Assembly (NCBI GenBank): GCA_964016885.1
Contig: OZ024741.1
Span: forward strand, 165,168,001-165,232,000
DNA: 64,000 nucleotides
Direction: 5' to 3'
Source of the DNA: Eledone cirrhosa
Taxonomy: Eukaryota
Position numbers and translations under genes: made by a program. This document shows positions 23,058 to 57,417 of the stretch, one piece after another (positions within the stretch are counted from its first letter, which is position 1; each line of letters begins with the position of its first letter). The notes under the pieces were generated by a model. That model was given only the letters and a program-made list of their open reading frames with translations. It did not search any database and had not been told where the DNA came from.

Positions 23058-23192
23058 TTATTCCAGGTTGAATCGGAGGTAACCACAGTAAGTAAGGTAC
23101 TCAATACATTGCAGAGTATAAAAGTTTTAATATAGATGAGATTCTACAGGACTAGAACTAGAGTTCTAGTCCTGTAGAATCTCATCTATATT

Positions 23193-23196
<4 letters not shown>
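23058..23196. mobile_element. PLE-like mini element ending in a perfect 35-bp fold-back (23125-23159 and 23162-23196)
   Basis: Perfect inverted repeat with a 2-nt loop. Same family as 38280-38406 (ccacagtaagtaaggtactcaatacatt). Confidence 0.75.
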
Positions 23197-23229
<33 letters not shown>

Positions 23230-23236
23230 ATGATGA

Positions 23237-23275
<39 letters not shown>

Positions 23276-24043
23276 GAGAAATATTTAAAAAAAATAAACA
23301 CACACACATGTATGAAGAAGACACACTCACCTATATACATAGACACAAAGTTATGTACATAGACACGCACTGACATATACATACAATGCACACACACACA
23401 CACACACATGTATGCTAGCTCATCTACACACAAATATGCAGACATATGCACACACTCACACTGGCACACACATATACAGTTACTCACACACACACACTCA
23501 TACTGGCACACACATATAAAGTTACTCTCACACACACACACTCATACACACATACACATATACAGACACACTCATTTATACATATACACATATACTATAC
23601 ACATTGACGGCACACATACTAAGACATTTAGATTACAACACACAGACACATACTTACACAAACAAACACAATACACAAATCTATAATTACATTAAGGGTA
23701 ATCAATACCAATATATTGGAGAAAATGTCCTTATTTCAATGTATTTATTTTATTGTAGTAAAACACATGGCAATCAATTATTGCTGTTAGGGCTGTAATT
23801 TGTTAGAATTGGGCAAAATACTTTGCAGCATTTGTTCCAGTGTTCTACATTATGAGTCCAAATCATGTGGAAGTTAACTTTGCCCTCTCAGCCTTCCAAA
23901 ACCGATAAAATAAACAACCAGCTAAGCACTGGAGTTGGTGTTATTGACTTACACCTCCACTACTAAATTGTTGGTATTGCGCCTAATTTAAAAGCCATTA
24001 TTTGTGTGAAGAAGAACACACTTCTCAGAAGCACACACATGTG

Positions 24044-24093
<50 letters not shown>

Positions 24094-24100
24094 CATACAC

Positions 24101-24194
<94 letters not shown>

Positions 24195-24356
24195 TATGGT
24201 GCTGAGACTGAGGAGACCACTAATTATTGTGAGTACTCGATACATGTAAAATGCCGATCGCAGCGCTAATTGATTTCAGCCAGTGGGTTACAAGCCGAAA
24301 GAACTTGGTGCCGTGGTCGCCCTCTCTCTCTTTATATATATATATATATATAAAGT

Positions 24357-24487
24357 ATATATGAAAAGATTCAGGACCTCGACAGCTGAGCTCAGCCGTT
24401 GGAGTTCTGAATCTTTTCATATATTACCCACTCGAGTACTCTGGTGGGTTATGGTCCACCTGGTATTTGACCACACCCTATCTGATA
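24357..24487. mobile_element. PLE-like mini element with a palindromic 5' part centred on GAG|CTC (24390/24391)
   Basis: atgaaaagattcag...gctgagctcagc...ctgaatcttttcat; the arm mismatches are all transitions; lies in (TA)n. Confidence 0.7.
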
Positions 24488-24607
24488 TAAAAGTATATAT
24501 ATATATATATATATCAACAAACATTATGTATACATAGTTGATCTCTCAGACTTTCACAAAGCACTGAAGGGATAAAGTTAATATGAAGACTCTATAAAAT
24601 AGCTTAT

Positions 24608-24763
24608 AAAACAAAGTGAAGACTCTTTAAGACAGAAAAAATAGTTGCCATCAACCGCTATGAGGGTTTGAACCCCATATCGTTAAATACGGGCTTTGAT
24701 TCCCTGTAGCAGTTGATGACAAATTTTTTTTCCGTCTTTAAGGGTATTTACCCTATTTTATAG
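24608..24763. repeat. Imperfect fold-back with tRNA B-box-like sequence at the inner ends
   Basis: aagacagaaaaaatagttgccatcaaccgctatgagggtttgaaccc versus gggctttgattccctgtagcagttgatgacaaattttttttccgtctt. Confidence 0.6.
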
Positions 24764-24794
24764 CATCTCTGCATGAGCACACCACTCTCTCTTT

Positions 24795-24828
<34 letters not shown>

Positions 24829-24868
24829 GATATTAAACAAATGGAAACTATATTTATAAAACCATATT

Positions 24869-24934
24869 TATTTCGTTATATATATTTCTGGGATATCATA
24901 TTAAAAATATGGTATGCCTTCCTCAGACAAAATA
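24869..24934 (-). ncRNA. Minimal type I hammerhead ribozyme motif
   Basis: Minus strand: tattttgt CTGAGGA aggcataccatatt-ttt-aatatgatatccca GAAA tatata T A acgaaata. 8-bp stem I, long stem II, palindromic stem III, AUA site. Confidence 0.78.
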
Positions 24935-25020
24935 CAATATATAAGCTGTTTTATAAATAATTTTGACATACCTTATAAAATATTTACTCGTTGTAACCCA
25001 ACAATTTAAAATAAAACTTT

Positions 25021-25055
<35 letters not shown>

Positions 25056-25073
25056 AGAGAGAGAGAGAGAGAG

Positions 25074-25420
25074 AGAGCATTGGCCTTGCAATTGAAAGGT
25101 TGTGAGTTCAATTCTCAGACCGGGTGATGTGTTGTTTCCTTGAGCAAGAGACTTACTCAACTGTAGAAATGAGATGATAGGACTGGAGTCCCTATCATTC
25201 CACTGCAAAGTGGTCGTGGAGGTGCCACGGCAAAACAGCACCCAGCCCACACTGTAAAGTGGACGTGTAGGCGCCACAGAAAAAAAGCACCCAGCACTCA
25301 CTGTAAATGAGGTTGGTGTTAGGAAGGGCATCTAGCTATAGAAATCAAGCCAGAATCAGTTTCTGTCCCACCCTTGCAAGCAGGGAAAAGCGGACGTAAA
25401 ATGATGATGATGATGATGAT
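25074..25420 (+). mobile_element. SINE family B with RTE-type tail
   Basis: Homologous to 888-1222 and 36001-36396; ends cggacgtaaaa(tga)n. Confidence 0.88.
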
Positions 25421-25467
25421 ATATATATATATGTATTCTACAGTGGTTTTAGGGTTATCGTGTTTGA

Positions 25468-25550
25468 GCTCTGCTGATGGTGGACGGTTCCAACCGTGAC
25501 CATCCCCACTGAAAGTTTCGCAAAATAGTCTTTTTAAGACTATACAGAGC
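25468..25550 (+). ncRNA. Degenerate hammerhead motif in a TA-embedded element (about 25432-25797)
   Basis: Stem I gctctg/cagagc; CTGATGG; (c)AAAA in place of cGAAA; stem III tagtctt-ttt-aagacta; AUA site. Confidence 0.55.
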
Positions 25551-25794
25551 ATTTGTAGTTTTTCCAAATTGAAGGATGAGTATTTAAACTTTATTTTATT
25601 CTGAGTTAAGGCTCTATTGATTTTTCCCTGGATTTCACAAAATTCTATGGATAAATCTATGTCTTGATGTTTTTTTAATTGAGTTTGAATTATTTTCCCA
25701 CATCTTACGTTAACTATTTTTCCATTTTGACGTTATAGTCACATATATTATGGAATACTGTTGGCTTCACGCTCACAACAATTTCTATACTTTC

Positions 25795-25830
<36 letters not shown>

Positions 25831-26485
25831 AGATAAGAAGTATAATCCCAACAGCAAGTTTTGTCCTTTTTTTCAAGCTTTTCCATTATGCATTGAGTAC
25901 TATCCTGATTTGGGGGTTGCACCACAGACACTCCATGTGTGTGTGTGTGTGTTTGTGTGATATTTATAAATACATATATATGCATGCTGTAAGGTGGTAA
26001 TGTTGGGGCCATGATGAAATGCATACAGTACACTCTGTAAAGTGGTTGGCAACAGGAAGAGCAACCAGAATGTGACAGCCAATCTAATGAATGCTAGCAT
26101 AAAAAATGACTGTAAAATAATAACGATGGTGATGATATATACAAATATATAAGCAGAAAATACACACAGCAAAACAGATGCCTAAGATAAACAGTCAACT
26201 ACATCTGAACCTCATCAACCAACTTGTTGGCGGCATGCAATTTTTTACTCATTAAGTGGTATTGTACTTGTAATACCAGTTTGTGTATCAGATTAGAGAA
26301 TCACTCTGTTTGTAAGATGCATGTGAGACAATAAAACAAAGGATGGATAGGAAAATTTATGGGTGTCTTTCAACAAAAACAGATTATACATATACATATA
26401 TATATATATATAGTTTGCGATAACAGAAGTCTGATAAGTTTTTGATTCCAGAGTCGAGTTCAATCAATACATATCGGACCTTGTA

Positions 26486-26672
26486 TTTTATCATGGCACG
26501 AACACTACTACTTTACAGAGTGTACTAGGTGCATTTTATCATGGCACCAACACTACTAGTTTACAGAGTGTACTGGGTGAATTTTATCATGGCACCAACA
26601 TTACTACTTTAAAGAGTGTACTGGGTGCATTTTATCATGGCACCAGCACTACTACTTTATAGAGTGGACAGT
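26486..26672. repeat. 48-bp tandem repeat, about 4 copies
   Basis: ttttatcatggcaccaacactactactttacagagtgtactgggtgca. The unit resembles the reverse complement of the SINE/LINE tail unit. Confidence 0.85.
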
Positions 26673-27370
26673 TTGTGTTGGGAGTGATGAGAATAACAAA
26701 AAGGAGCTCTTCCACACTACACTTGCTTCAGTTCCAGCACCCCATCTCAAATAAAGCCACTTGCCAAATAAGTACAACTCCGAAACAATATAAAAATATT
26801 TTCTTAATATCAAACCAAATAGTTGAAATATTTTCAATAAAAGTTTTCCATGTAAAATTTTCCATCCATTTTCATCGATTTGTTTTCTTTTGTGTTATTT
26901 ATTTATTAATTTATTTATTTTTCTTTCTTTTTTCTTCTACTTTTTACTTTTATTCCCCTTTACAAAAGAAATTTGGCAAAGTTCAAGAAAAAAAAAACAT
27001 TCATAAGCCAGCTAAGAGTTTGGCAAAATGTTGACCTTATTCTGAAGTGGTGACAACAAGGATAATTGATAATTAAATAATATTCTGACCAAGTTGAACT
27101 ATTTTGAGAAAGCTGAATATTTGGTAGAGAGACAAACTAGCTGAGTGAATAGCTTATTGAACTATCCACTCTAAGTACATGGGTTCAAATCTGTTAAAGA
27201 CATTTATTGAACTACTATCTGTCCATGGAATACTGCTTCAAAAAGTCTTGTCTAACCTATGCCAACATGGAAAAGTGGACATAAGAATGATAATGGTAAT
27301 GATGATGATGACTAGTTGGGTTAACAAAACAAACAAAAGAGAACCTGGAGATGAAAAACTAAATATTATA

Positions 27371-27725
27371 CAGGTAAAATTCTGTTATAATGAATATCAT
27401 TATAAAAAATTTTTCAGTACAGGTAAAACTCTGTTATAAAGAATACCATTGGAATAAAGTTACGGCCCTTTACGGTCTTAATTCAAATCCCACTGAGGCT
27501 AACTTTGCCTTTCATACTTACGGGGTCGATAAAATAAAGTACCAGTAATGCACTGGGGTTGCGCCAAAACTAGAAACAATTATAACAAATTTTTCAGTAT
27601 AACAAAATATTTTTCAATCCCTGGTCAGACGCTCGATGTGTTAGGTCAATCTTATTATAAAGAATATTTCATTACAACAAATTTTTTTTGTACCCTGTGA
27701 ATTTCGTTATAACGGAATTTCACTG
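27371..27725. mobile_element. Tigger/pogo-like MITE with duplicated left end and a SINE A insert (about 27460-27582)
   Basis: ta|caggtaaaactctgttataa ... ttcgttataacggaatttcactg|ta. Confidence 0.6.
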
Positions 27726-30700
27726 TATAATGACATTTTTTTCAATTCCCGAGGTAATAACAAACAAATGCTCGACTTGTTTCGGTTAATCTCATTATAA
27801 AGAATTTTTCATTACAACAAATTTTTTTATACCCCATCACAGAATTTCACTATCATACATTTAGTCTGTCACATCATTGTTTTGGTTATTTCCAACACCA
27901 CCTTTGTAAGACAAATAAAGGAAAGCAAGGGAGTTGATTATTAGACTAGTAATGCTTAATGTAATTTCAGTATTTTGAGGATTTATTTGTTGATGTTGAA
28001 TAATAAGATTCAACTGAGTATGAAGAAGCAGGCCTATGGTATACATGCAAACAATATAACATGTAAGATCAGGCCTTGGTCTTATACACTAGATATCTTG
28101 AACCACCCTATCACCAGCACCAACTTACTATGATGTAATATACACAGGTATTTACAGCAGTTGCTGTAATATTTAAGACTTACTATCATCTGTATCTATC
28201 TCGTAGTTTAGAATAAAACAATTTTAAGTGTGTTTTATTTGATTTAGTGGAAATAAGTTAAACAAAAATTAGAATGAAAATAGACACAATAAAATAATTT
28301 GAAGAAAACAACATATTAATATGAAAGGAGAGGAGCAGGATTAACAAATGTAGTTGGAAATATAAAATTGTGGAATATGAATAGATTTAATCTAATCTCT
28401 CCACTTAAGTAGAACATTTGTAAAACAAGATCATGAAAATAATTAAAAGAAAAACAATTCTATAAGAATTGATTTAAAGTCTTGTTGTTCATTCTTCAAT
28501 ATTAATTGGCTAAGAGAGCAATTAATAGGATCTACATCTCCAATATTTTTGTTAATAGCAAGAATGTTTAAATATTAGCAACGTATAGCATTATATGGAT
28601 TTATAAGTTTAGTAGAAAGTGAATATTTCTATGGCATGAATACAGTAGTCAAGAGAAGGGGCACCATTACATTACTGGTACTTCCAATATTTCCTGGCAT
28701 AGAAGACACTCTTTTCCCCCACCAAAATAAGTCTTGAAAAGATTTACTCTGTCTTGGAGGCCAAAGGTTATGTTAGTCATCGGCCTTTTCTTCCACTCCC
28801 TTTCAAAATTTTATGACTGTGCTGGGACTTATGGTAATTTGCTCATCAAAGTGGCTATTTGCATAGTTGTTAGAGTGTTTGATATGTTTTAAAGTCATTG
28901 TTCCAGTTCCCTGTATTCTTGGTTCAAATTCTGCCATGGTCAACTTTGCTTTTTTGTCTTCTGGAGCCAATAAGTAGAGCAATCAGTCAAATATTGTGGG
29001 GTAAATTCTTCAATCTCTCTCCTCTCTCTTGGAATCAACTGTGTTGCACTATGAGACGAGCATGGGTGGATGGGTCACAACAGGCCAAATCAGTTTTTAT
29101 TCAGTCATTGCTCTAGTTGATAGGTTACTTTACAAAGTGCACTGGGTGCTTTTTATCTTAACACCAGTTCTAGAGTGGTTGCTTTATCCACTGCAAGGTT
29201 AAAGAACCCTAGTTATGTAGCCCCTATTCAAGATGGCCATAACTAAGAGGTTGGCCAGAAGAGGTGTGATGAACAAGTGTTGAAAGAAGAGAGAGTAAGA
29301 TTTTGAAAGTGAGAGGAGAAACAGTGTGCTAAGATATTGGGGTATTTAGATTGGCAGAAATGGCTACAAATTGGTTGTTGGTAGTAGCTGGGATGTTGGA
29401 GAGAAAATAGTATGAGCAGCAATAATATATGTGTAAACATTTTAACTTGTCATCCATTACATCATTCATAGTTTAAATAGATTAGAAAAATGGAGAAGGG
29501 ACAGCTTCAGAAACTTGTGTCTCTTCTAAGGTTTCCACAATCTACAGATTGCAATGTCTACTCATCATCACCATTTTATGTCCAATTTCCACACTGGCAT
29601 GGGTTGGACAGGTTATCAAGATCTAAGACAAGATGGGTCGGAATGACCTCATCTTGTTCATTACGTTCCATATTGGGCATGGCTTCCAAGGCTGAAATCC
29701 TTCCATATGCCACCAAATACCTTACGGTGTAAGTTTTTCTTGAAACCAGCACTACCACATTACAGAGTCACCTGGGCACAGATTATTGTTGTACTAACAC
29801 TAACACTTTACAGTGTGTACTCGATGTATTTTATTGCGGTACCAGTACTAGAGAGGTTATTACATAATCAACTAGACTAACGAATCCTCTCCAACCGTAT
29901 GCTGTCTCTGTTTGATAACCCAACAAATACTCTCACTTCCTCTTAAAAGGCATTGCTTTGCATCTTTAAAAAACAACCATACATTTTTTAAAACTCATTC
30001 TTACTTATCAAAACATTTAGAATACAAGACAAGTTTTATTTTTCTTCTTACATACACAGGAGGTTTGTCTTTTAACTATACAGGGTTAATGGATTACATA
30101 TAATTAAAAATTAAGACATTTTTTTCAGCAGATTTTTCTTTATGCTGTAAATATTTGTGTTGTTTTGTGAACAGAACCACACATTTATAGATTTAGAAAC
30201 TTGAAAGATGTCAGCTTCAGTTAGTTTGGCTTTTTTTTTACATACACAAGCTGTTATTGACATATTACACACATGTATACAACAAAATTAATCAGTGTTT
30301 GCTAATTAAAACTGTATGTTTCCAACATGCTCTAGGTTTATTAATGGATTCAACCACATCTATAGATGTAGATCTCATACAGAAATACCTCACCTTACTA
30401 CTATATAAGAAATACTTTTCTCTTGCTTTTAGTTTACTTCAAAACTGAGGTGCGTTTATGTCATATCACTGAGGACAAATTCAACAGATTTCACCAACGG
30501 TTTTTGTTTTTTTTTAGATTAAATCTGCCCTGTCTTGTTATTTGGATTCTTAATCTCAAAGTCAATATTCTGATCAAGGTGAATCATTTCTAGCAAGTTA
30601 CCTCTCTGTAATGTACTACCAACCACCAACCACCAACCTTACAATGCCTGATGGTTTCTACAAAATCCTATCATTGGATTACAAGCACCATTGAGGCTAG

Positions 30701-30797
30701 CTTCAGTATCAGGAAAAATCAATAGTTTTACATCAATTTTATGTGTATGCATGTGTATATATATATATATATGTGTGTGTGTATGTGTATATATATA

Positions 30798-30860
<63 letters not shown>

Positions 30861-31811
30861 TGCTACTGTAGTTTAAACAGATTTTCATTGTAATCTCTTA
30901 TTCATGTTGGTTTTCTATTTTTGTTTTTATTTTTATCCTTTTTTATGCCAGATCTTGTGAAGAATAAATCTTCTATCTTTCTCAAAGTACGTCAACTACC
31001 ACCAATATAGGACCAAATTCTCTCACCCATCCCTCTCTCTAGCCAATGATGGAGCCACTAAAAACAGTAGGAAATCTCAAATCATACCCAGTTATCTTTA
31101 AAAAAAAAAAGTATATTGGATAATTGATTCTAGATGCCTTATAACTGATATATGATGGAATAGTCACAGCTGATTCATTCAGTGCTAACCTGGGGCTAAA
31201 CAAAAACTCTCTTCTCATCTCTCATTTCTTCCCATTTTATCTGCCACAATTGATTCTTCTTCCTCTGTATCTCTCTCTGTATCAGAAATATAGTCTTATT
31301 AACAACTGTGTGGTTAAGGAATTTGTTCTAGAACCATGTGATTTATAGGTTCAGTCCTACTGTGCAGCACCTTGGGTTGACCAATGTCTTGTGAGTGTAA
31401 TTTGGTAGGTTGAAACTGCAGAAGCACATTGTATATATCTGTGTTTATCTGCATGTATATTTATGTTAGTGTTTGAGTCTGTGTTTATGTCCCACAACTT
31501 AGCAGTTCATCAAGCAACTGATCAATAAAATAAGAACTAAATTTGAAAAAAATAATTACTGCAGTCATTGTGGTTATCTAAATCAAGGTTTGCCTCAACA
31601 TCGCCATAATCTAATGAATGAAATAAGTAAAAAAAAAAATTAATAAATATGAAGTTAATGAAGTTTTAGTTATTCTTCCCAAACCTTTTCTCTGCCATAT
31701 CTTCATCCACAGTAGAAACATAGCTAAAATTCTGGTGTCAAAATAAAATCGAATAAATGCACCTTTCATGAGTTATAGTGCACCTGAGCACTGTACACAA
31801 TAATTTTCATT

Positions 31812-31970
31812 TGGCATGCTTTCCAGCATAGTTACGTCCCTTTACGATCTGAGTTCAAATCCCGCTGAGGTTGACTTTGCCTTTCATCATTACGGGGTCG
31901 ATAAAATAAAGTACCAGTAATGCACTGGGTAATTGCTGGCCTTGTGCCTAAAGTAGAAACAATTATTATT
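31812..31970 (+). mobile_element. SINE family A
   Basis: B box gagttcaaatcc, family A body and gtagaaacaattatt tail. Confidence 0.85.
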
Positions 31971-32895
31971 TATAGCATTTGGACTTTTTCGTTTGCTTTT
32001 CTTAGTCCCCACTTATTCCCGAGATGGGTTGTCGGGGCAGAGTCAGCAGTCATGCCTTTCAGGGGGTTCTATCAGAAACAACGATCACTAGATGATGTGG
32101 CTGGATCCCCAGGCATGACCAAGATATGTTATGGATGTTATCTAGCTATCTTGCTCAGGGTTTATCTCTGAGTCTCCTGCCAGTTAGTTTTGTCCATACA
32201 ATCTTGTTACACTTCCCTGGTAAATTCAAAATTAGGTGTCAGGGAAAGAGATGTAGAGATATTGTTGAATCCAAGCTGTCTGATGAACAGATAAATGAAC
32301 TGAAATCATAACTTAGTGTAAATATTTTAGAGCTGCACTTATTTAGTATGTGACTTGATCTGAAACTGTGAATACTCAAACACTTATATTTGCTTTTCAT
32401 TTATTCTAGATACTTGTATATAAATAACACGTTTTCCTGCAAAAATCTGTGAGAGACTAACATGCAACTTATCTACTAAGACCTACAAAGTCTCAATTCA
32501 AAATGTATAGTACATTGTAAATGTTATATATAAAACTGACATTAAGTAATCAAGTCTTTACTCTAATATTACAAATTGTCACAAGGATCTGTCCACTAGT
32601 AAAAATACTATAAACATTTGAATTGAAAAACTAATTTTCAGATATTTTCTGCTAAATCTTTACAGGATGTTAAGAGTTAAATAAAAAGAGACTTGGATAA
32701 CTTCAACTGTTTTTGTGAAATACTGTATACTTGAGTAATAGTCGGTTTCACATAAAAGTTGATCCCCTATCTTTGGCAAAAAAATCTGGAATTTTCCATA
32801 GACCTCTTACAAAAGTAGACCCTAGTATTTTACAGATAACACTGTTACAAAATCGTCATAAATTTATGGCAAATTTATATTATTCCAAATACAAA

Positions 32896-33305
32896 TATAT
32901 GCGACGACTAGAGAGAAATGAAGCAAGTATGCTCCAATGGATGTGCAATGTCAGTGTGTGCAAACGACCAAGCATAGACGAGTTGAGAGTGAAACTGTGT
33001 ATAAGAGGGATAAACTGTAGTGTGTGGGAGAGAAGACTCTGTTGGTATGGACATTTGATGTACATGGAGGATGACCATTGGATAAAGAAGTGCCAAGAAA
33101 TCCCAGTGGAAGGAATACGCAGTAGAGGAAGACCATGAAAAACATGGGCGGATGTGGTGAGAGCTGACCTCAGATCACTGAAGCTCTCAGAGGAAATGAC
33201 GAAGGACCATGACGAATGGAGAGATGTTGTACTGAAAAGGACCTGTGCCACCCTTGCAAACAAAGAAAAGTGAACGTAAAATGATAATGATGATGATGAT
33301 GATGA
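32896..33305 (+). mobile_element. RTE LINE family 2, 3' fragment
   Basis: MRRLERNEASMLQWMCNVSV..ERRLCWYGHLMYMEDDHWIKKC..RGRP* followed by a (TGA)n tail. Confidence 0.9.
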
Positions 33306-33527
33306 CATGACTAAAACTAAAATTTTACCTGAACATGTGCCTACCTGAACATGCCCTATAGTTGGAATGTTTGGCGCTTATAGTAAAACACTATACAATA
33401 GTGAGCACTACACATCTGTTTATAGGTGTAACAGCACCATTACTAAAATGTGATTGGGGGGTTGTGATGCAAAACTTACTGAGCAGATATCAGCCATGTG
33501 TATAGTATTACAGTGGGTAGTGGCATA

Positions 33528-33855
33528 TGTGGGCACTTCGTTGATTACGATGACGAGTGTTCCAATTGATACGATCAACAGAACAGCCTGCTTGTGAAAT
33601 TAATGTGCAAGTGGCTGAGCATTCCACTGGTACACGTACCATTAATGTAGTCCTCAGGGAGATTCAGCATGACACAGAATGTAACAAGACTGGTCCTTAG
33701 AATTACAGGCACAATTCCCTTTTGCCAGCTGAGTGGACTGGAGCAACGTGAAATAAAGTGTCTTGCTCAAGGACACAACGCACTGCCAGGAATCAAACTC
33801 ACAAACTTATGATTGTGAGCTGAATACCCTAACCTCAAAGCCACGCGCCTTCACA
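33528..33855 (-). mobile_element. SINE with family B head and alternative tail
   Basis: 12-bp TSD ggtagtggcata at 33516-33527 and 33856-33867. Homologous to 40604-40922. Confidence 0.88.
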
Positions 33856-38279: not shown

Positions 38280-38406
38280 GTCCCAGGTTCAATCAGTTCC
38301 ACAGTAAGTAAGGTACTCAATACATTAGTAGAGCATATACAACAAAGCTTAATACAGAAAAGGCTTCTACAGGACTAGAACTGTTTCATTCGAAGGAAAT
38401 CCTCAA
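38280..38406 (-). mobile_element. PLE-like mini element beginning at a hammerhead core
   Basis: Minus strand: tTGAGGA t-ttc-cttc-gaa-t GAAA cag-ttctagtc-ctg TA gaag, then the tail shared with 23058-23159. Confidence 0.65.
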
Positions 38407-44553: not shown

Positions 44554-44845
44554 TATCACCAACCACTTTACTGTGCGTAGTAGGTGTGCTATATCGTGGA
44601 ACCAATTCTAGTGAGGCTGTCAGCCAGTGATTCAACAGACGAGCCCTCACTACTTTATGGAGCAACCTGATGGGGGATAATATGGCAGGCATGTAATATT
44701 ATTTACATGCCTGCCATATTATCCCCCATCATGTTGCCCCATAAAGTAGTGAGGGCTCGTCTGTTGAATCACTGGCTGACAGCCTCACTAGAACTGGTTC
44801 CACGATATAGCACACCTACTACGCACAGTAAAGTGGTTGGTGATA
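44554..44845. repeat. Near-perfect palindrome, about 143-bp arms with a 6-nt loop
   Basis: 44554-44696 versus 44703-44845, with three mismatches by eye. Confidence 0.95.
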
Positions 44846-45949: not shown

Positions 45950-48900
45950 CAACATCACCACTATAACCACCATCAACATTACTGCCAACAACACCTCGAC
46001 TTTCACCTACACCAACACCACCACCACCATCATCATCAAACATTAGTGCCTTCGCCACCTCCACTTTCACCTACACCACTACCACCACCATCAACATTAT
46101 TGCTATCATCACCTACACCACCAACATTACTGCCATCACCACCACAACCATCAACATTACTGCCACCATGCACCACCACCTCTATTAATATTACTGCCAT
46201 CACCACCTCCACTTTCACCCACATCACCACCACCACCACAACCATCAACATTACTGCCATCACCACCACCACAACCACCAACATTACTGCCATCACCACC
46301 ACCACCACCACCACAACCACCAACATTACTGCCATCACCACCACCACTATCACCAGCAGCACCATCACTACAACCAGCACCAGCATCACCACCATCAACA
46401 GTACTGCTATCACCAGCACAACTACCACCACCACCATCACCACAACCACCAGTACAGCTATCACCAGCACCACCACTACCACCGTGACCAACACTACCAC
46501 CAGCACCACCATCATCAACACCACCATTAGTACCACCACCACCACCAACACCACCACTACCACCACCATCACCACCACTACCACCAGCACCACCACTACC
46601 ACCAGCACCATCACTACCACCAGCACCATCACTACCACCAGCACCACCACTACCACCACTACCACCAGCACCACCACTACCACCAGCACTAACACTACCA
46701 CCAACACCACCACTACCACCAGCACCAACACTACCACCAGCACCACCACTACCACCAACACCAACACTACCACCAGCACCAACACTACCACCAGCACCAC
46801 CACTACCACCAACACCACCACTACCACCAGCACCAACACTACCACCAGCACCACCACTACCACCGGCACCACCACTACCACCAGCACCACCACTACCACC
46901 AGCACCACCACTACCACCAGCACCAACACCAGCACCACCACTACCACCACTACCACCAGCACCACCACTACCACCAGCACCATCACTACCACCAGCACCA
47001 CCACTACCACCAGCACCACCACTACCACCAGCACCAACACCACCACCAGCACCACCACTACCACCAGCACCACCACTACCACCAGCACCACCACTACCAC
47101 CAGCACCACCACTACCACCAGCACCAACACCACCACCAGCACCACCACCACCACTACCACCACCACTACCACCACCACCACCACTACCACCAGCACCAAC
47201 ACCAGCACCACCACTACCACCACTACCACCAGCACCACCACTACCACCAGCACCAACACCACCACCAGCACCATCACTACCACCAGCACCACCACTACCA
47301 CCAGCACCACCACTACCACCAGCACCAACACCACCACCAGCACCACCACTACCACCAGCACCACCACTACCACCAGCACCACCACTACCACCAGCACCAC
47401 CACTACCACCAGCACCAACACCACCACCAGCACCACCACTACCACCAGCACCACCACTACCACCAGCACCACCACTACCACCAGCACCATCACCACCACC
47501 AGCACCACCACTACCACCAACACCACCACTACCACCAGCACCAACACCACCACCAGCACCAACACCACCACTACCACCACCACTACCACCAGCACCACCA
47601 CTACCACCAGCACCAACACCACCACCAGCACCACCACTACCACCAGCACCACCACCACCACCAGCACTACCACCAGCACCATCACTACCACCAGCACCAC
47701 CACTACCACCAGCACCACCACTACCACCAGCACCACCACCACCACCACCACTACCACCAACACCACCACTACCACCAGCACCATCACTACCACCAGCACC
47801 ACCACTACCACCACTACCACCAGCACCACCACTACCACCAGCACCACCACCATCACCAGCACCACCACCACCACCACCAGCACCACCACTACCACCACTA
47901 CCACCAGCACCACCACCAGCACCACCACCAGCACCACCACTACCACCAGCACCACCACTACCACCAGCACCACCACTACCACCAGCACCAACACTACCAC
48001 CAGCACCACTACCACCACTACCACCACTACCACCAGCACCACCACTACCACCAGCACCACCACCATCACCAGCACCACCACCAGCACCACCACTACCACC
48101 AGCACCACCACTACCACCAGCACCAACACCACCACTAGCACCACCACTACCACCAGCACCATCACTACCACCAGCACCATCACTACCACCAGCACCACCA
48201 CTACCACCAGCACCACCACTACCACCAGCACCATCACTACCACCAGCACCACCACTATCACCAGCACCACCACTACCACCAGCACCATCACTACCACCAG
48301 CACCAACACCACCACTAGCACCACCACTACCACCAGCACCACCACTACCACCAGCACCACCACCATCACCAGCACCACCACCAGCACCACCACTACCACC
48401 AGCACCACCACTACCACCAGCACCAACACCACCACTAGCACCACCACTACCACCAGCACCATCACTACCACCAGCACCATCACTACCACCAGCACCACCA
48501 CTACCACCAGCACCACCACTACCACCAGCACCATCACTACCACCAGCACCACCACTATCACCAGCACCACCACTACCACCAGCACCATCACTACCACCAG
48601 CACCAACACCACCACTAGCACCACCACTACCACCAGCACCATCACTACCACCAGCACCACCACTACCACCAGCACCACCACTACCACCAGCACCAACACC
48701 ACCACTAGCACCACCACTACCACCAGCACCATCACTACCACCAGCACCATCACTACCACCAGCACCACCACTACCACCAGCACCACCACTACCACCAGCA
48801 CCATCACTACCACCAGCACCACCACTACCACCAGCACCACCACTACCACCAGCACCATCACTACCACCAGCACCACCACTACCACCAGCACCACCACTAC

Positions 48901-51900
48901 CACCAGCACCACCACTACCACCAGCACCATCACTACCACCAGCACCACCACTACCACCAGCACCATCACTACCACCAGCACCACCACTACCACCAGCACC
49001 ACCACTGCCACCAGCACCACCACTACCACCAGCACCACCACTACCACCAGCACCATCACTACCACCAGCACCATCACTACCACCAGCACCACCACTACCA
49101 CCAGCACCACCATCATCAACATCTCAACTATCACCAGCACCACCACCAGCACCACCACTACCACCGGCACCACCACTACCACCGGCACCACCACTACCAC
49201 CAGCACCACCACCACCACCAGCACCACCACTAGCACCACCACTACCACCAGCACCACCACTACCACCAGCACCACCACTACCACCAGCACCAACACTACC
49301 ACCAGCACCACCATCATCAACATCTCAACTACCACCAGCACCACCACCAGCACCACCACTACCACCAGCACCACCACTACCACCAGCACCATCACTACCA
49401 CCAGCACCACCACTACCACCAGCACCACCACTACCACCAGCACCACCATCATCAACATCTCAACTATCACCAGCACCACCACCGGCACCAACACAACCAC
49501 CGGCACCATCACTACCACCAGCACCATCACCACTACCACCAGCACCACCACCAACACCACCACTACCACCGGCACCAACACTACCACCGGCACCACCACT
49601 AACACCAGCACCATCACTACCACCAGCACCATCACTACCACCAGCACCACCACTACCACCAGCACCACAACTACCACCAGCACCATCACTACCACCAGCA
49701 CCATCACCACCACCAGCACCACCACTACCACCAGCACCATCACTACCACCAGCACCACCACCACCACCAGCACCATCACTACCACCAGCACCAACACTAC
49801 CACCAGCACCACCACTACCACCAACACCACCACTACCACCAGCACCAACACTACCACCGGCACCACCACTACCACCAACACCACCACTACCACCAGCACC
49901 ATCACTACCACCAGCACCATCACCACCACCAGCACCACCACTACCACCAGCACCATCACTACCACCAGCACCACCACCACCACCGGCACCAACACTACCA
50001 CCAGCACCATCACTACCACCAGCACCATCACCACTACCACCAGCACCATCACTACCACCAGCACCACCACTACCACCAGCACCAACACTACCACCAGCAC
50101 CAACACCACCACTACCACCACCACTACCACCAGCACCATCACTACCACCAGCACCACCACTACCACCAACACCACCACCAGCACCATCACTACCACCAGC
50201 ACCACCACTACCACCAGCACCACCACTACCACCAGCACCACCACTACCACTACCACCAGCACCACCACTACCACCAGCACCATCACTACCACCAGCACCA
50301 TCACTACCACCAGCACCACCACTACCACCAGCACCAACACTACCACCAGCACCACCACTACCACCAACACCACCACTACCACCAGCACCAACACTACCAC
50401 CGGCACCACCAACACTACCACCAGCACCAACACTACCACCAGCACCATCACTACCACCAGCACCAACACTACCACCAGCACCACCACTACCACCAACACC
50501 ACCACTACCACCAGCACCAACACTACCACCGGCACCACCACCACTACCACCAGCACCATCACTACCACCACTACCACCAGCACCAACACTACCACCAGCA
50601 CCATCACTACCACCAGCACCACCACTACCACCACCGGCACCAACACTACCACCAGCACCACAACTACCACCAGCACCATCACTACCACCAGCACCATCAC
50701 CACCACCAGCACCACCACTACCACCAGCACCAACACTACCACCAGCACCACCACTACCACCAGCGCCAACACTACCACCAGCACCAACACTACCACCAGC
50801 ACCACCACTACCACCAGCACCAACACTACCACCAGCACCACCACTACCACCAGCGCCAACACTACCACCAGCACCACCACCACCACCAGCACTACCACCA
50901 GCACCATCACTACCACCAGCACCACCACTACCACCAGCACCATCACTACCACCACAACCAACACTACCACCAGCACCACCACTACCACCACAACCAACAC
51001 TACCACCAGCACCATCACTACCACCAGCACCATCACTACCACCAGCACCATCACTACCACCACAACCAACACTACCACCAGCACCATCACTACCACCAGC
51101 ACCATCACTACCACCAGCACCATCACTACCACTACCACCATCACTACCACCAGCACCAACACCACCACCAGCACCAACACCACCACTACCACCACCACTA
51201 CCACCAGCACCATCACTACCACCAGCACCATCACTACCACCAGCACCATCACTACCACCACAACCAACACTACCACCAGCACCACCACTACCACCACAAC
51301 CAACACTACCACCAGCACCATCACTACCACCAGCGCCAACACTACCACCAGCACCATCACTACCACCAGCACCATCACTACCACCAGCACCACCACTACC
51401 ACCAGCACCACCACTACCACCACAACCAACACTACCACCAGCACCACCACTACCACCAGCGCCAACACTACCACCAGCACCACCACTACCACCACAACCA
51501 ACACTACCACCAGCACCACCACTACCACCAGCACCACCACTACCACCACAACCAACACTACCACCAGCACCATCACTACCACCACTACCACCACAACCAA
51601 CACTACCACCAGCACCATCACTACCACCAGCACCACCACTACCACCACAACCAACACTACCACCAGCACCACCACTACCACCAGCACCACCACTACCACC
51701 ACAACCAACACTACCACCAGCACCACCACTACCACCAGCACTACCACCAGCACCACCACTACCACCAGCACCAACACTACCACCAGCACCATCACTACCA
51801 CCAGCACCACCACTACCACCACAACCAACACTACCACCAGCACCATCACTACCACCAGCACCACCACTACCACCACAACCAACACTACCACCAGCACCAT

Positions 51901-52601
51901 CACTACCACCAGCACCACCACTACCACCACAACCAACACTACCACCAGCACCACCACTACCACCAGCGCCAACACTACCACCAGCACCATCACTACCACC
52001 AGCACCAACACTACCACCAACACCAACACTACCACTACCACCAGCACCACCACTACCACCAGCACCAACACTACCACCGGCACCAACACTACCACCAGCA
52101 CCACCACTACCACCAGCACCACCACTACCACCACCACTACCACCAGCACCAACACTACCACCGGCACCAACACTACCACCAGCACCACCACTACCACCAG
52201 CACCACCATTAATACCACCACTACCACCACTACCACCGGCACCGACACTACCACCGGCACCAACACCACCGCCGCTATTAGTACCACCACTACCACCACC
52301 ACTACAACCGGCACCATCACTACCACCACTACCACCACCACCACCACCACCACCATTAATACCACCACTACCACCGGCACCATCACTACCACCACCACCA
52401 CCACCATTAATACCACCACTACCACCACTACCACCACCACCAACACCAACACTACCACCACTACCACCGGCACCACCACTACCACCAACACCAACACTAC
52501 CACTACTACCACCAGCACCACCATCATTAACACCACCACCACCATTAGTACCACCACCACCACCACCACTACCACCACCACCACCATTAGTACCACCACC
52601 A
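45950..52601. repeat. About 6.6-kb (ACC)n-derived minisatellite with an 18-bp core unit ACCACCAGCACCACCACT
   Basis: Read directly; includes an exact 300-bp higher-order duplication (48061-48340 versus 48361-48640). Confidence 0.97.
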
Positions 52602-52878
52602 GCTCTCCTTTTACATCCGTGTTGCATGCTGGGTAGTCCAGCTAGCCATGGTCTAAGACTAGACAGATGTTTGAGACCACATCTTGCTCATATGTTCCAT
52701 TAATAACGTCAGTTATTGGCCTGCTTCTGGGATTATCTGACATTCTATGACAGCTAAAGTTTGATAACAGAAATGAAAATGAAAGAAAGGAAAGATATTA
52801 TCTTAGAAGATGGCAGAATGTTCCATATTAGTGTCCATCAGGGAGCCTACCTGAAGAGATGTATTTATAGACATATGT

Positions 52879-52926
<48 letters not shown>

Positions 52927-52989
52927 GCATATACACACACAGATGTGTGTGTGTACACACAAATATATATATATATATACACACACACA

Positions 52990-53062
52990 CAGAGTGTCCT
53001 AAAAAAATGTATACATATTTATTAGAATGCTATTGAAGTGTGTATGCATTTTGGTGGACAGC

Positions 53063-53065
<3 letters not shown>
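52990..53065. mobile_element. Tiny Tc1/mariner-type MITE
   Basis: cagagtgtcctaaaaaaatgtataca ... tgtatgcattttggtggacagcctg|ta imperfect terminal inverted repeats. Confidence 0.6.
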
Positions 53066-53135
<70 letters not shown>

Positions 53136-53714
53136 TATACATACACACATCTATATATAACTGGTAGAGTAGGAACATTGTCCGCTCCATCATCACCATC
53201 AGCATGATTATAATTAGTATTACGATTATAGATAATTTTGTCTGACAGAAATATTAAAGTTATAAAAACAGGAAATGGTTTCTCAGAATCAAAATAAAAA
53301 CTTTGGTTCTTTGCATTTTACTTTTGTTTTTCTTTGCCTGTGCTTCTTTTACCTTTCCTTCCTTCCTGCCATCCTTCTAATTCATTGGAAGAGGAGGGAG
53401 ATATCAACATAGCCATCCCAACTAATTGAGTCCAACTAGACATTTCTACAGAACACTACAGAACATTCCTGTCTAGTTTGTATACATCACTTCATCAAAT
53501 GGAATGAAACAATCTTCCAAGAATATATCACATAAACAAAACTCTAAAGCAAATTACTTTAATAAGTTCGTTAATTAATGAGAAAGATATTCTTATTTCT
53601 TCTCATGCTATTTGTTTAAATAGACAATTTTTTTTATTAAATTACTCTCTCTCTCTCTCATATATACACACACACATATACACATGCATGCACACACAAG
53701 CACATATATCATAT

Positions 53715-53761
<47 letters not shown>

Positions 53762-54172
53762 AGAGAGAGAGAGTGGTGTGGGATAAATCTATATAAAAGA
53801 AAGATGTTTATTGGTTGGTTGAATCACACAAAAATGGCACGTGCGTACACACACACACAGACATATTTAAAGAGGGAGAAACACAGAGGGATAGGCAGAG
53901 AGAGATATGCCGTTTACATAGAGAGATATGCCGTTATACAGAGAGAGATACAATTAAAGTGTTAGATATTCAGAGAGAGAGAGTGACGTCCCACAAAAGT
54001 ATCAGTTGAAGGTTTAACAATATTGCATTAGCTTTTATAAAGTCGTGTTACAGTCTTTGATTTTACAGAACAAAGAAAAATTGATACTATTTGAAATTAA
54101 TCTACCCCCCAGCTTTTATCCATATACGACTTACAGACCGTACTAACGAAGCAACACTTCAGCAGCAATGTT

Positions 54173-54309
54173 ATGCGGTATATTGCTGTGTTTCAGATGA
54201 AGTCTTTGGAGGTGAAAAAGATCATACTGATTATGGTTATTTCACATTTAAAATCCAAGGCCAATGCTACCATTTAATTGGCAGTTTACTCCCCCAGCCT
54301 AATAAGGAA
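54173..54309 (+). pseudogene. Helitron Rep/helicase fragment
   Basis: FQM(K)S-FG ... FTFKIQGQCYHLIGSLLP matches the Helitron FQMTSFG...TFKIQGQVYHxIGSLLP motif; one frameshift. Confidence 0.8.
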
Positions 54310-54726
54310 GTTTTATGATTGTTTTTTTTTCATGTCTCTCTCACACACACCTCATACACACACACACATTACTGTCTCACCTCATACTGAAAACCAGACA
54401 ACACATCCAATACAGACGTTCTCTCTTAACTATTCTCCTGGGCGAAGCCTGGTACATCAGCAAGTAGATAGATAAATATGAAGAATGTCTACCTAACAAT
54501 GACTTACCATACACATACACATATATATATATCCATATATATCATGAATGTACTACATATCTCCTATCATCATCATCATCATTATTGCTTAATGTCCACT
54601 TTACCTGCCATCAAAGCTAACATTCCCTAACCAAACTTTGATACACTGTTTTCACTTCAATCATCCTTGTTCTTTTCAAAATTATCTTGAAACAAATAAG
54701 AAAGACAAGAGATACCATGACAAATT

Positions 54727-54937
54727 CCTTTAACATTACTCTATATTTACTATTGTATTTTCATAGTAAAGGCTTTATCTCACATAATATTGAATCTATG
54801 AGATTTTGATATTATCTATTTTGAGAACAATACCTTAACATCAGTATGAGCAGCCAGTTACAGCCGGTTACAGCTGGTTTGAACAGAAAAAGGTGAGAGA
54901 ATTCTGGCCGGATATAGCTGGTTTAAATGCTAAAGGG
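54727..54937. mobile_element. piggyBac-like MITE (left end decayed)
   Basis: Body homologous to 8499-8719; ends taaatgctaaaggg|TTAA. Confidence 0.8.
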
Positions 54938-56288
54938 TTAAGATATATGAGACCAACCAGCATGATGGATATGTTTCAGACAGCAACAACTCCCTATATG
55001 ATTGTGCTATGGTGTCCAGAATTGTGAATGTAATATCTCCACTAGGGGTACTATTTATGTTCCCCATGGACAGGTTATCATGGTACAAAACTTGACATGA
55101 CAGAGAGACTATAACTTGCTCATACATTCCAGATTTGTCATGGTTTCTACAGACGGATGCCCTTCCTAATGCCAACTGCCTTACAGAATATACTGGAGTT
55201 TTATCATGGTATCAGCATTATAGAGATTATCATATTTTAGGTAGCCAGATTAGAATATAGCCAGACAAATTACAAAACCTACTATATATAAATACGGAAA
55301 TGTTACAAAGAATAATATGAGATTCTTGATTCACAAAGAGGAATCTGATGAGCTAAGTGCACGTATTTCTGATTCCTATTGAATACTTCATAGAGAAGAT
55401 TTGAACACCTAACAGATTGGACTAAAACTAAATTATTTAACCAATTTTGTACCATATTTCTAATGAAAGATACTGCCTGTGATTTCCAAATAATTTTGAA
55501 AATAATTAAGAATTTGGAAGGATATAGAAATATCACTAACTTTCTCATTATGCTGGTGTTCAGAATATTTTACATTTTACATAAAATTATGATAGAAGGC
55601 TTTTAGAAACATTTCAAAACAAACAGTTTTATATCATAGAACCTGAGGCAGTTTCAGGCAGTTTGGTATCAAAAAGGTTAAATAATTGAATTTATTAATC
55701 ATCTTCACTGATTTGATGTCTAGATTAATTAAATATATTAACATAGATTAGAAAATAATTTCATTAATGAAACAACAGATTTCATTCCCTCATGGCTGCC
55801 GTCTGATGACTGATAGCAGTAAAAGAAGAAAAGAATTTTATATATTTATATATGAATACATTATCTATGTATTACACACACATACACTCACACATTGTAT
55901 TTTTACACATGAACCCTTGTGCCTTATTAATTAACAAAGGTGACTTACTGTCAGCTACATATATATATTCACTGCAAACAATACAATATCTTTTTCATTA
56001 TATATTCTTTATTACATCAATTATATCATTAGTTATTGATAACCAAAACCTATAGTGATGATTGTTATGGTCTGTTTATTATATATGACTGTCTCTTTGG
56101 ATTTTGTAAGAGGAGGTGTTGGTTGTAATAGTGGTTGTGTTGATGTGGGTAATTGAAGTGGAGATGGTTGTGGTTTTGGTAGTTGATAGTAGATGGTTGT
56201 GGTGATTGTGGTGGTGGTAACCGTGTTAATGTCTAAATATGCAACAGTAGACATAATTAAGTTATATACTAATCAAGTTATATAATCC

Positions 56289-56319
<31 letters not shown>

Positions 56320-56742
56320 ACAGCAGCAGCGGCAGTAGTAGTAGTAGTAGTCGCAGCAGTAGTAGTAGTAGTCTTTCTATTTCCACAACACCACAGTTCA
56401 ATAAACTAAATCAGTGACAGAAGGTGTGTTATGGTGGTGGTGTTGGGAGATTAAATTAATTCAGTAAACAAGATGAGACAAGCTTTAAAACCCAAGGGAC
56501 TGTAGCATGCTTAACTTGATAGGCAAAAGACCAAAGACTAAATCAGTGATGGAGTAAGATGTATTTCAGTCTTCCCCCACCACCATACACACTATACAAA
56601 TAGACTTTTTTTTGTATTTTTCACACTTTTTCCTTCATTATTTCACAATAACATAAATGGGAGTTAGTTTCACACATCTATTCATTGTATATGTTTTCTG
56701 TTTGTTTGGGTGAACCTACAGTAACTGCACATTACCCTCCCT

Positions 56743-56785
<43 letters not shown>

Positions 56786-56792
<7 letters not shown>

Positions 56793-56930
56793 TAAAATAA
56801 CAGATTAAAGTTTAAATAAATATTTTTTATTAAAGATTAAATAAATATTTGCTCTACGGTTCTTATATATTTGATATATATTTTCCTTATCGAGCTCTCT
56901 TTGGATTTTAGTCTTCAATTTTATTATTAT

Positions 56931-56936
<6 letters not shown>
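56786..56936 (+). mobile_element. PLE-like tail fragment (family also at 57225-57417 and about 63720-63958)
   Basis: aatatttgctctacggttcttatat...tctttggattttagtcttcaa; lies in (TA)n. Confidence 0.65.
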
Positions 56937-56985
<49 letters not shown>

Positions 56986-56997
56986 CACATCACTAGT

Positions 56998-57085
56998 CTG
57001 AAGAACAGATCGATAATGGAGTCGAGCCCATAACTCCTATAGGTGACCATGAGCCAATCCTCTGTGAAACGAGCATAACAGGTTG
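56998..57085 (+). ncRNA. Hammerhead-like core in a TA-embedded element (56983-57210)
   Basis: CTGAAGA acaga..(51 nt)..tctgt GAAA c. Stems I and III are weak. Confidence 0.45.
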
Positions 57086-57224
57086 ATACACAATAAATAT
57101 CTTATATGTGTAAATGAAACTTTCTTGTTTTTTCTAATACATACACTCTGCCTGTGCATAGAGTGTTTGCTTTGGTACCATCACAAGTAATTCAATGAAT
57201 CACCTACACTATATATATATACAT

Positions 57225-57417
57225 ATAGTAATAATAATAAATTTGAAGACTAAAATCCAAAGAGGGCTCGATAAGGATAAATATATATCAAATATATAAG
57301 AACCGTAGAGCAAATATTTATTAAAATAACAGATTAAAGTTTAAGCCAAGAATCGCTGCTTTCACCCTTAAGCAGCGATTCTTTGCTTAAACTTTAATCT
57401 ATTATTTTAATAAATAT
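57225..57417 (-). mobile_element. PLE-like element with a 48-bp fold-back (57314-57361 and 57370-57417)
   Basis: Inverted arms with two mismatches. The minus strand across the loop reads aagggt GAAA gc...gc TT aaact, a hammerhead 3' half. Confidence 0.7.

What the first reader, a model, noticed from the sequence alone, without database searches (positions are those of the whole stretch)
23125..57417. Recurrent fold-back with its apex inside the hammerhead in three independent families
At 23125-23196 a perfect 35-bp hairpin turns in stem III of the hammerhead seen at 38362-38406. At 24357-24424 the palindrome is centred on GAGCTC in the stem III loop of the motif seen at 7907-7935 and 58848-58875. 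At 57314-57417 the hairpin turns at stem II/GAAA of the motif seen at 63808-63850. Inverted 5'-truncated copies are known for PLEs, but apexes falling a few nt upstream of the cleavage site suggest a mechanism. Reverse transcription may stall at the ribozyme, the cDNA snap back on the self-complementary stem and prime second-strand synthesis, leaving hairpin mini-elements. The mechanism is inference.
Basis: partly seen in the sequence, partly recalled or inferred. Interest (0 to 1): 0.75.

Follow-up and report, generated by a model that had tools for sequence, protein, structure and literature searches.

The report
Penelope fold-backs mark the RNA start
The three DNA hairpins are real head-to-head stubs of Penelope-like jumping genes, but in the genome-wide sample most such junctions sit at one fixed point, likely the capped start of the element's RNA, not in the ribozyme stems, which suggests two DNA copies are primed on opposite strands, run off the RNA end and are joined.

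Summary
The three hairpins exist as described and turn inside hammerhead (HHR) motifs of three Penelope-like (PLE) families in (TA)n; two families are linked to Hydra-type ORFs. The proposed test fails. Of 155 inverted pairs, only 10 have both ends in stems II-III (3 are the finding's own), whereas 110 reach one fixed site (-3..+9), with few ends upstream of it in F1 and F2. That site has a TATA box at about -30 (family 1), initiator-like sequence, and an extra G (24 of 31 non-templated bases against 25 of 109 in controls; 5 of 5 held-out family-1 arms), so it is likely the capped transcription start. It abuts the HHR in two families but lies inside loop II in the third. 142 of 159 pairs have one arm ending at each of two fixed 3' sites; 67 of 155 cannot come from cis snap-back. 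Best reading: twin priming on uncleaved, capped sense RNA with run-off and end-joining. Illumina reads of other samples show such junctions. The architecture is published and this scan noted it before on other DNA; I found the start-site/cap signature in neither.

The parts
23057..23159 (-). F1a long arm (+31 to priming site 1 at +134), including the unpaired tail 23057-23124
23162..23196 (+). F1a short inverted arm (+31 to priming site 2, TA-rich, about +65); 2-nt spacer at 23160-23161
24357..24390 (-). F2a short inverted arm (stem III loop to site 2 at +63)
24391..24485 (+). F2a long arm (stem III loop to site 1 at +140), tail 24425-24485; near-identical TA-tract interruptions at 24350-24361 and 24487-24499 may be a target-site duplication
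57227..57371 (-). F3 long arm (+18 in stem II to site 1 at +162), tail 57227-57313
57370..57417 (+). F3 short inverted arm (+28 to site 2 at +75); 2-nt microhomology at the junction
7843..7951 (.). F2a head-to-head pair with NON-overlapping arms (long arm +88..+140 on minus; short arm +4..+63 on plus): no hairpin, cannot arise by cis snap-back
56785..56934 (.). F3 head-to-head pair with junction at +45/+64, i.e. at or downstream of the predicted cleavage site
38280..38405 (-). F1b single copy, 5' end at +8 (near the inferred start), runs to site 1
58847..58890 (+). decayed F2 fragment (GAAA-stem III-cleavage site to site 2)
   Evidence: seen in sequence; below the mapping threshold
63714..63956 (+). 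F3 single copy from -93 to site 1, reads through the start site; GAAA-stem III deleted

Best explanation
The hairpins are head-to-head pairs of short Penelope-like (Hydra-type) pseudo-LTR fragments in (TA)n, likely made when both strands of the cut target prime reverse transcription at two fixed internal sites of uncleaved, capped sense RNA, the two cDNAs run off the RNA's 5' end and are then joined with small losses. Shown: two fixed 3' ends per family with one arm at each; a sharp 5' wall at one position per family; an extra G there; a TATA box at about -30 in F1; no peak at the cleavage site. Inferred: the wall is the Pol II transcription start and the G is the copied cap; priming on both strands; end-joining by short microhomology. 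The apex lies 'in the hammerhead' because the start site abuts stem I (F1, F3) or sits inside loop II (F2) and the priming sites are only 60-160 nt downstream; junctions that lost more sequence, such as the three in the window, slide into stems II-III, where palindromic stems and loops offer microhomology. Products lack the upstream promoter and would be dead on arrival.
For: 142 of 159 same-family pairs have one arm at site 1 and one at site 2; single copies end at the same two sites. Furthest 5' end within -3..+9 in 44/61 (F1), 56/66 (F2), 10/28 (F3); in the position-picked stretches plus window alone 7/12, 22/23, 2/7. Ends per nt upstream (-35..-4) 0.19-0.22 against 6.77, 7.92, 1.62 at the wall. 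Base at -1 in 55 arms ending at +1: 24 equal the genomic base, 24 of the other 31 are G, control 25 of 109, p=5e-8; strictly unexplained by genome or partner arm 7 of 9 G; held-out loci: 5 of 5 F1a arms G where the genome has C, twice on both arms of one junction (L316, L321). TATAAATA starts 29-33 nt before +1 in 12 distinct F1 contexts, 7 at 30, with CCAAT further up. Short arm reaches further 5' than the long arm in 67 of 155, no overlap in 17. Two junctions join different families with no (TA)n between (L016, L028), implying two RNAs. RAD-seq reads of three other samples: depth rises about 4-7-fold across +1 and 8 of 9 listed opposite-strand joints have an end at +1..+9 (F1); 3 of 4 at +1 or +7 (F2; +1 located). 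In vitro, an anole PLE nicks and extends both strands, starts at two internal sites that define the tail, and uses uncleaved RNA (PMC11167929). Full-length L1 junctions carry a cap-derived G (PMC11702581).
Against: No RNA data locate the start site. F2a gives little cap signal (5 of 5 single copies have T at -1, the genomic base; held-out F3 and F2a arms also T), and many Gs can also be read as partner-arm microhomology (17 of 22). F2 and F3 have no TATA box; the initiator match rests on a recalled consensus. F3's wall is weak (10 of 28; 8 reach further upstream; 14 ends at +14..+22 around stem II). All three walls are also YAG| sites, like splice acceptors. Panel references were trimmed at +1, so sharpness within about 3 nt is not reliable. 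Which strand primes at which site, and why, is unexplained.
Confidence: 0.72

Rival explanations
1. One reading: reverse transcriptase stalls at the folded ribozyme, the cDNA snaps back on stem II/III and primes its own second strand.
For: The three window apexes are in stems II-III. F3 has a secondary cluster at stem II, and L120 joins exactly through the stem II pairing. L065 joins through stem I at the cleavage site.
Against: 10 of 155 pairs have both ends in stems II-III; no excess over downstream sequence (p=0.41, 0.51, 0.91); 67 of 155 violate cis geometry, 17 do not overlap; a stall would sit at the 3' edge of the structure, not the 5' edge; the F2 wall is in an unpaired loop; the model does not explain why the second arm stops at site 2 or the extra G.
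Confidence: 0.08
2. The wall is a 3' splice site: RNAs spliced (or cut) at YAG| supply the template, so cDNA ends cluster there.
For: All three walls follow pyrimidine-rich sequence and read CAG or TAG; in D. virilis Penelope the intron end maps to the 5' end of helix I (PMC4209133).
Against: Arms keep the AG and are followed by variable sequence, not by a constant upstream exon; a TATA box at -30 and a single extra G fit a start site; F1b begins with GG, 4 nt after its CAG.
Confidence: 0.1
3. Self-priming on an antisense RNA template produces the head-to-head palindromes (Arkhipova et al. 2013).
For: Proposed from palindromes at inverted junctions in rotifer PLEs (PMC3846280).
Against: Predicts palindromic overlap at every apex and no cap-like G at a sense start; 17 pairs do not overlap, many junctions have spacers or 0-2 nt overlap, and cross-family pairs exist (L016, L028).
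Confidence: 0.05
4. Assembly or fold-back read artefacts.
For: One hairpin is perfect; the three junctions were not checked in reads of the source individual.
Against: Median arm identity 0.88-0.97 by subfamily, only 12 of 121 perfect; asymmetric tails at fixed sites; the same kind of joints recur in Illumina reads of three other samples and in contigs.
Confidence: 0.02

Closest known systems
Hydra clade of C-terminal EN+ Penelope-like elements (Craig et al. 2021, PMC8557442; includes Hydra-1_Obim)
   Same: (TA)n targeting, HHR in the pLTR, CxCX5C linker, DKT motif, C-terminal GIY-YIG; inverted 5'-truncated copy and a tail on one end only.
   Different: Tails here are 60-90 nt, not 30-40; ORF-less head-to-head doublets are a main product (42 of 115 copies in position-picked stretches plus window); the HHR listed for Hydra-1_Obim is a different sequence; no start-site or cap signature in the passages and section read.
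Poseidon element of Anolis (PAc) in vitro (Frangieh et al. 2024, PMC11167929)
   Same: Two internal RT start sites that define the tail, both target strands nicked and extended, AT-rich targets, HHR cleavage not needed.
   Different: In the parts read the paper does not link two-strand priming to head-to-head junctions or to run-off at the RNA 5' end; its sites are said to be non-homologous to the target, whereas site 2 here is TA-rich.
L1 twin priming and cap-derived G at full-length 5' junctions (passages of PMC11702581; Ostertag and Kazazian model recalled)
   Same: Second primer from the opposite target strand gives an inverted arm; junction resolved by end-joining; extra G where RT reaches the cap.
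   Different: In L1 the second site is opportunistic and arms rarely overlap; here both sites are fixed, both arms usually reach the RNA end so they overlap into a hairpin, and some pairs use two different families.
Minimal/variant PLE hammerheads (Cervera and de la Pena 2014, PMC4209133)
   Same: Type I HHR in the pLTR with palindromic loop III; F2 carries the U3-A8 core with C3-G8 in some copies.
   Different: F2 has a long stem II with a loop of about 28 nt that holds the inferred start site; F3 has a CAGAAGA core; F1 and F3 lack G10.1-C11.1. Activity untested.

Membership tests
Hydra-clade PLE | RT plus C-terminal GIY-YIG endonuclease ORF linked to the pLTR in sense orientation | tested here: met
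   F2a: L300 has pLTR, 5' UTR, ATG at about +247, broken RT-EN ORF, second pLTR ending at site 2, and an inverted tailed pLTR. F3: 564-aa open RT-EN frame upstream of the pLTR in L301. Pfam gave no hit for the 414-aa part; identification rests on motifs and on likeness by eye to published Hydra alignments.
Hydra-clade PLE | Same ORF link for family F1 | tested here: inconclusive
   No F1 copy continuing into an ORF among 12 upstream-selected and 10 pattern-selected loci; F1 may be non-autonomous or intact copies were missed.
Hydra-clade PLE | CxCX5C linker; CxxC and CxH around conserved E and N | tested here: met
   F3: CNCRNRVDC, CDLC..E, N..CKH; F2: CNCLDRSSC (definition).
Hydra-clade PLE | DKT in place of DKG; RWK motif | tested here: met
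   F2a L300 reads SDKT and RWR; F3's frame is cut before these motifs.
Hydra-clade PLE | Insertion into (TA)n and HHR in the pLTR | tested here: met
   290 of 320 paired arm ends and 130 of 161 single-copy ends are followed by (TA)3 or (CA)4; type I HHR layouts read from complete copies.
Hydra-clade PLE | Placement in the Hydra clade by RT phylogeny | not tested
   No reference sequences were available as files.
Active hammerhead ribozyme | Conserved core CUGANGA/GAAA/UH with three stems | tested here: inconclusive
   F1 core canonical, F1b +1..+70 folds as a three-way junction, F1a does not in the MFE; F2 U3-A8 variant; F3 CAGAAGA with UU at the cut; no Rfam match in the window.
Active hammerhead ribozyme | Self-cleavage | not testable with these tools
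   No excess of 5' ends at the predicted cut sites (0.6-1.2 per nt), so inserted templates were mostly uncleaved.
Non-LTR retrozyme | Tandem head-to-tail HHR monomers | tested here: not met
   Copies are single or head-to-head; no direct tandem junction in held loci or by pattern in the genome.
MITE / DNA fold-back transposon | Constant terminal inverted repeats and constant length | tested here: not met
   Outer ends are asymmetric (tail on one arm) and junctions vary from copy to copy.

The most novel reading that the evidence does not exclude
In Hydra-type PLEs the normal integration event is double: a dimeric enzyme primes both strands of a (TA)n cut, on one or two capped RNAs, and the commonest product is a promoterless 'strong-stop' doublet that records the transcription start at base resolution, cap included. 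The start site is placed against the hammerhead, at the first base of stem I (F1, F3) or inside loop II (F2), so that in F2 promoter-initiated RNA carries only half a ribozyme and only read-through RNA can self-cleave. About 100,000 such doublets in this genome would be a fossil map of PLE start sites and would settle template polarity and the origin of inverted pLTRs.
Probability: 0.45. Interest if true: 0.72.

Novelty: new member of a known kind. Interest (0 to 1): 0.55.

Why it matters
How PLE head-to-head inverted ends arise, whether the template is sense or antisense, and what the hammerhead does are open points in the papers read (PMC3846280, PMC8557442, PMC11167929). The junction statistics give sharp, cheap predictions: capped RNA starts at a named base in each family, uncleaved sense templates, two fixed priming sites used on opposite strands. 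The same junction mapping could be run on any PLE-rich genome. The elements themselves are a known kind, and the specific ribozyme-stalling idea is not supported.

Tried and rejected
Rfam scan: only microRNA-type matches to hairpins and repeats, no hammerhead. The repeat finder was swamped by microsatellites. Pfam: no hit for the F3 ORF part. First end-refinement gave artefactual ends at -16 and -29 in F1 and was replaced. Two searches meant to add F3 and F2b copies returned nothing although the queries come from this genome (common words are skipped), so F3 stays at 28 pairs. No RNA holder listed. No F1 copy with a linked ORF found; the ORF in L312 follows a (TA)40 tract and another HHR family. 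A 77-nt head-to-tail joint seen in reads of organism A was not found in this genome by an exact pattern or in held loci. A downstream promoter element was looked for by eye at +28..+32 against a recalled consensus and not found. MFE folds recover the hammerhead junction only for F1b. Literature searches for PLE twin priming, head-to-head plus reverse transcription, inverted pLTR since 2022, and transcription start plus hammerhead listed no paper with this junction analysis; subscription papers (e.g. older Penelope work) are not covered.
Full report
OBSERVATION. The three hairpins are present at the stated coordinates: 35-bp perfect arms with a 2-nt loop (23125-23196), 34-bp arms with 5 mismatches centred on GAG|CTC (24357-24424), and 48-bp arms with 2 mismatches and an 8-nt loop (57314-57417), all between (TA)n tracts. 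Each has an unpaired 60-90-nt tail on one side. The window lies in a 3.0-Gb assembly, by its repeats likely an octopus (inference; earlier scan notes on this genome point the same way).

FAMILIES. Searches of the own genome with 3'-end-only queries (top 40 of 349-1860 candidates, 30 fetched each) and 119 position-picked 10-kb stretches (ten adjoin the window) gave complete copies. Numbering from the site where most copies start (+1): F1 has stem I at +1..+6, CTGATGA at +7, GAAA at +26, stem III with a CTAG-containing loop and a predicted cut after +45. F3 has the same geometry with a CAGAAGA core and a cut after +46. F2 has a long stem II with a loop of about 28 nt, a U3-A8 core (C3-G8 in some copies) about 45 nt upstream of +1, and a cut after +41, so that +1 lies inside loop II; U3-A8 is a published covariant (PMC4209133). 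F2a and F3 are attached, in sense, to RT-endonuclease frames with the motifs that define the Hydra clade; L300 shows the textbook unit of pLTR, ORF, pLTR ending without tail, and an inverted tailed pLTR. No ORF link was found for F1. Rough density in 1.254 Mb (stretches plus window): 26, 51 and 38 copies, of which 12, 23 and 7 inverted pairs, i.e. about 275,000 copies and 100,000 pairs genome-wide if representative.

BLAST mapping against single real copies gave 359 insertions, 355 after removing duplicates; 34 selected by queries that contained HHR or upstream sequence were set aside, as were arms cut by a locus edge and cross-family pairs, leaving 155 inverted pairs (an earlier refinement had artefacts and was replaced). 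Both ends lie in stems II-III in 10 of 155, three being the finding's own; the furthest end lies there in 21. The furthest end lies at -3..+9 in 110 (F1 44/61, F2 56/66, F3 10/28; position-picked set plus window alone 7/12, 22/23, 2/7). Ends per nucleotide, upstream / wall / stems II-III / cleavage site: F1 0.19 / 6.77 / 1.06 / 1.00; F2 0.22 / 7.92 / 0.87 / 1.20; F3 0.19 / 1.62 / 0.74 / 0.60 (wall against stems p=7e-23, 2e-27, 0.007). Arms primed at site 1 end in stems II-III no more often than in the next 40 nt (14 v 15, 15 v 25, 6 v 12; p=0.41, 0.51, 0.91). So enrichment in stems II-III is not seen. Against my reading: F3 has 14 ends at +14..+22 around stem II and 8 of 28 pairs reaching upstream of the wall, and in the unbiased F3 set 4 of 7 have the furthest end in the stems; L120 is joined through the stem II pairing.

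WHAT THE WALL IS. In F1 a TATAAATA begins 29-33 nt before +1 in 12 distinct contexts (7 at 30), with CCAAT further up. F1a, F2 and F3 start at an A after a pyrimidine in initiator-like context (recalled consensus). Of 55 arms ending at +1 (one mis-mapped row dropped; set-aside rows included), 24 have the genomic base at -1 and 24 of the other 31 have G, against 25 of 109 at control ends (p=5e-8). Many of these Gs can also be read as partner sequence (17 of 22); of 9 bases explained by neither genome nor partner, 7 are G, one beside a (GA)n tract. In loci fetched after the model was fixed, 5 of 5 F1a arms ending at +1 have G where the genome has C, in L316 and L321 on both arms with a one-base spacer; two F3 arms and one F2a arm have the genomic T. 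An extra G marks RT copying the cap at full-length L1 junctions (PMC11702581 passages). The wall is therefore likely the capped transcription start. A splice acceptor is the main rival (all walls are YAG; the D. virilis intron ends at helix I), but arms keep the AG and no constant exon follows. F2 is a natural control against structure: its wall is in an unpaired loop. No RNA run was listed, so the start site is not shown directly.

HOW THE INVERSION FORMS. Each family has two fixed 3' ends (F1 about +134 and +65, F2 +140 and +63, F3 +162 and +75); 142 of 159 pairs have one arm at each, and single copies end at either. Cis snap-back requires the tail-bearing arm to reach at least as far 5' as the other; this fails by more than 3 nt in 67 of 155, and 17 pairs do not overlap (the window's own 7843-7951 is one). 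L016 and L028 join arms of different families without (TA)n between. Junctions show short overlaps or spacers of mixed length. This fits priming from both target strands, run-off, and end-joining; in vitro the anole PLE extends both strands from two internal sites that define the tail and uses uncleaved RNA (PMC11167929). It does not fit antisense self-priming, proposed in PMC3846280. Copies that read through +1 are those primed in a downstream pLTR and keep the promoter (inference).

ARTEFACT CHECK. Arms have median identity 0.88-0.97 by subfamily and 12 of 121 are perfect. In Illumina RAD reads of three samples of organism A (share of words 0.63 in its best run, so perhaps a relative), F1 depth rises about 4-7-fold across +1 and 8 of the 9 opposite-strand joints shown have an end at +1..+9 (6 further joints not shown); for F2, 3 of 4 have an end at +1 or +7. 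RAD depth is distorted by restriction sites. The three window junctions were not themselves laid.

COMPARISON AND NOVELTY. Inverted truncated copies with a one-sided tail, (TA)n targeting and pLTR hammerheads are published (PMC8557442: passages, section 11, and supplement look-ups; PMC4209133: parts 1-2 of 4; PMC3846280, PMC2377424, PMC13282606, PMC11702581: passages; PMC11167929: parts 1-2 of 4; bioRxiv 10.64898/2026.07.22.740005: part 1 of 5 and passages, its supplements closed). A putative TATA and initiator in a rotifer pLTR was noted in PMC3846280, and the D. virilis promoter is TATA-less and internal. This scan has reported the same architecture 11 times in at least 4 genomes, one note already inferring two-strand priming from the tail; none came up for start site, cap and junction. 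Searches listed no paper mapping PLE inversion junctions to a capped start site; subscription literature is not covered and supplements other than that of PMC8557442 were not seen.

VERDICT. Observation confirmed; mechanism as proposed not supported as the main route; replaced by twin priming with run-off at a likely capped start that coincides with, or lies inside, the hammerhead (confidence 0.72). Known kind of element, with a new and directly testable mechanistic signature. Interest 0.55.

Noticed in passing
window 18227-18413 and 44554-44845: Two further long hairpins (77-bp arms with a 33-nt loop; 143-bp arms with a 6-nt loop) that belong to none of the three families, are not set in (TA)n and show no HHR core by the regex used; the second seems to sit inside a SINE-like repeat.
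   Followed up: no
L060:1419-1495 (reads of organism A): Recurrent head-to-tail joint giving a 77-nt HHR-containing unit in three Illumina samples and in contigs; could be a retrozyme-like tandem array derived from F1. Not found in this genome by exact pattern.
   Followed up: partly
L016 (near 1400-1440 on minus) and L028 (about 1300-1420): Head-to-head junctions between arms of different PLE families with no (TA)n between, implying two RNA templates or template jumps in one event.
   Followed up: partly
L122, L124, L140, L303 and others: F2 hammerhead core covaries between U3-A8 and C3-G8, and the long loop II holds the inferred start site.
   Followed up: partly
window near 2563 (minus strand) and many loci, e.g. 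L004, L014, L029, L062, L095: At least one more abundant HHR-bearing family with a long stem II and AT-rich stem III, also beside (TA)n; in L312 it adjoins a PLE RT frame.
   Followed up: no
tails of F1 and F2; also the L016/L317 arm end: A short shared motif around GAGTAC with a small hairpin lies between the two priming sites in otherwise unrelated families; a candidate protein-recognition signal.
   Followed up: no
window 57430-57750 and 63440-63650: Copies of a SINE/RTE-like repeat ending in (TGA)n(TA)n; such tails often host the PLE stubs in other loci.
   Followed up: no
L002, L003, L025 compared with window 23125-23196: These share the window hairpin's junction on the long arm but keep a short arm that runs to +1; the window hairpin could be a later 30-nt deletion of such a junction. 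They were selected by a query holding that junction.
   Followed up: partly
window: The window holds 200 N (assembly gap or withheld stretch); not located relative to the finding, none in the stretches read.
   Followed up: no
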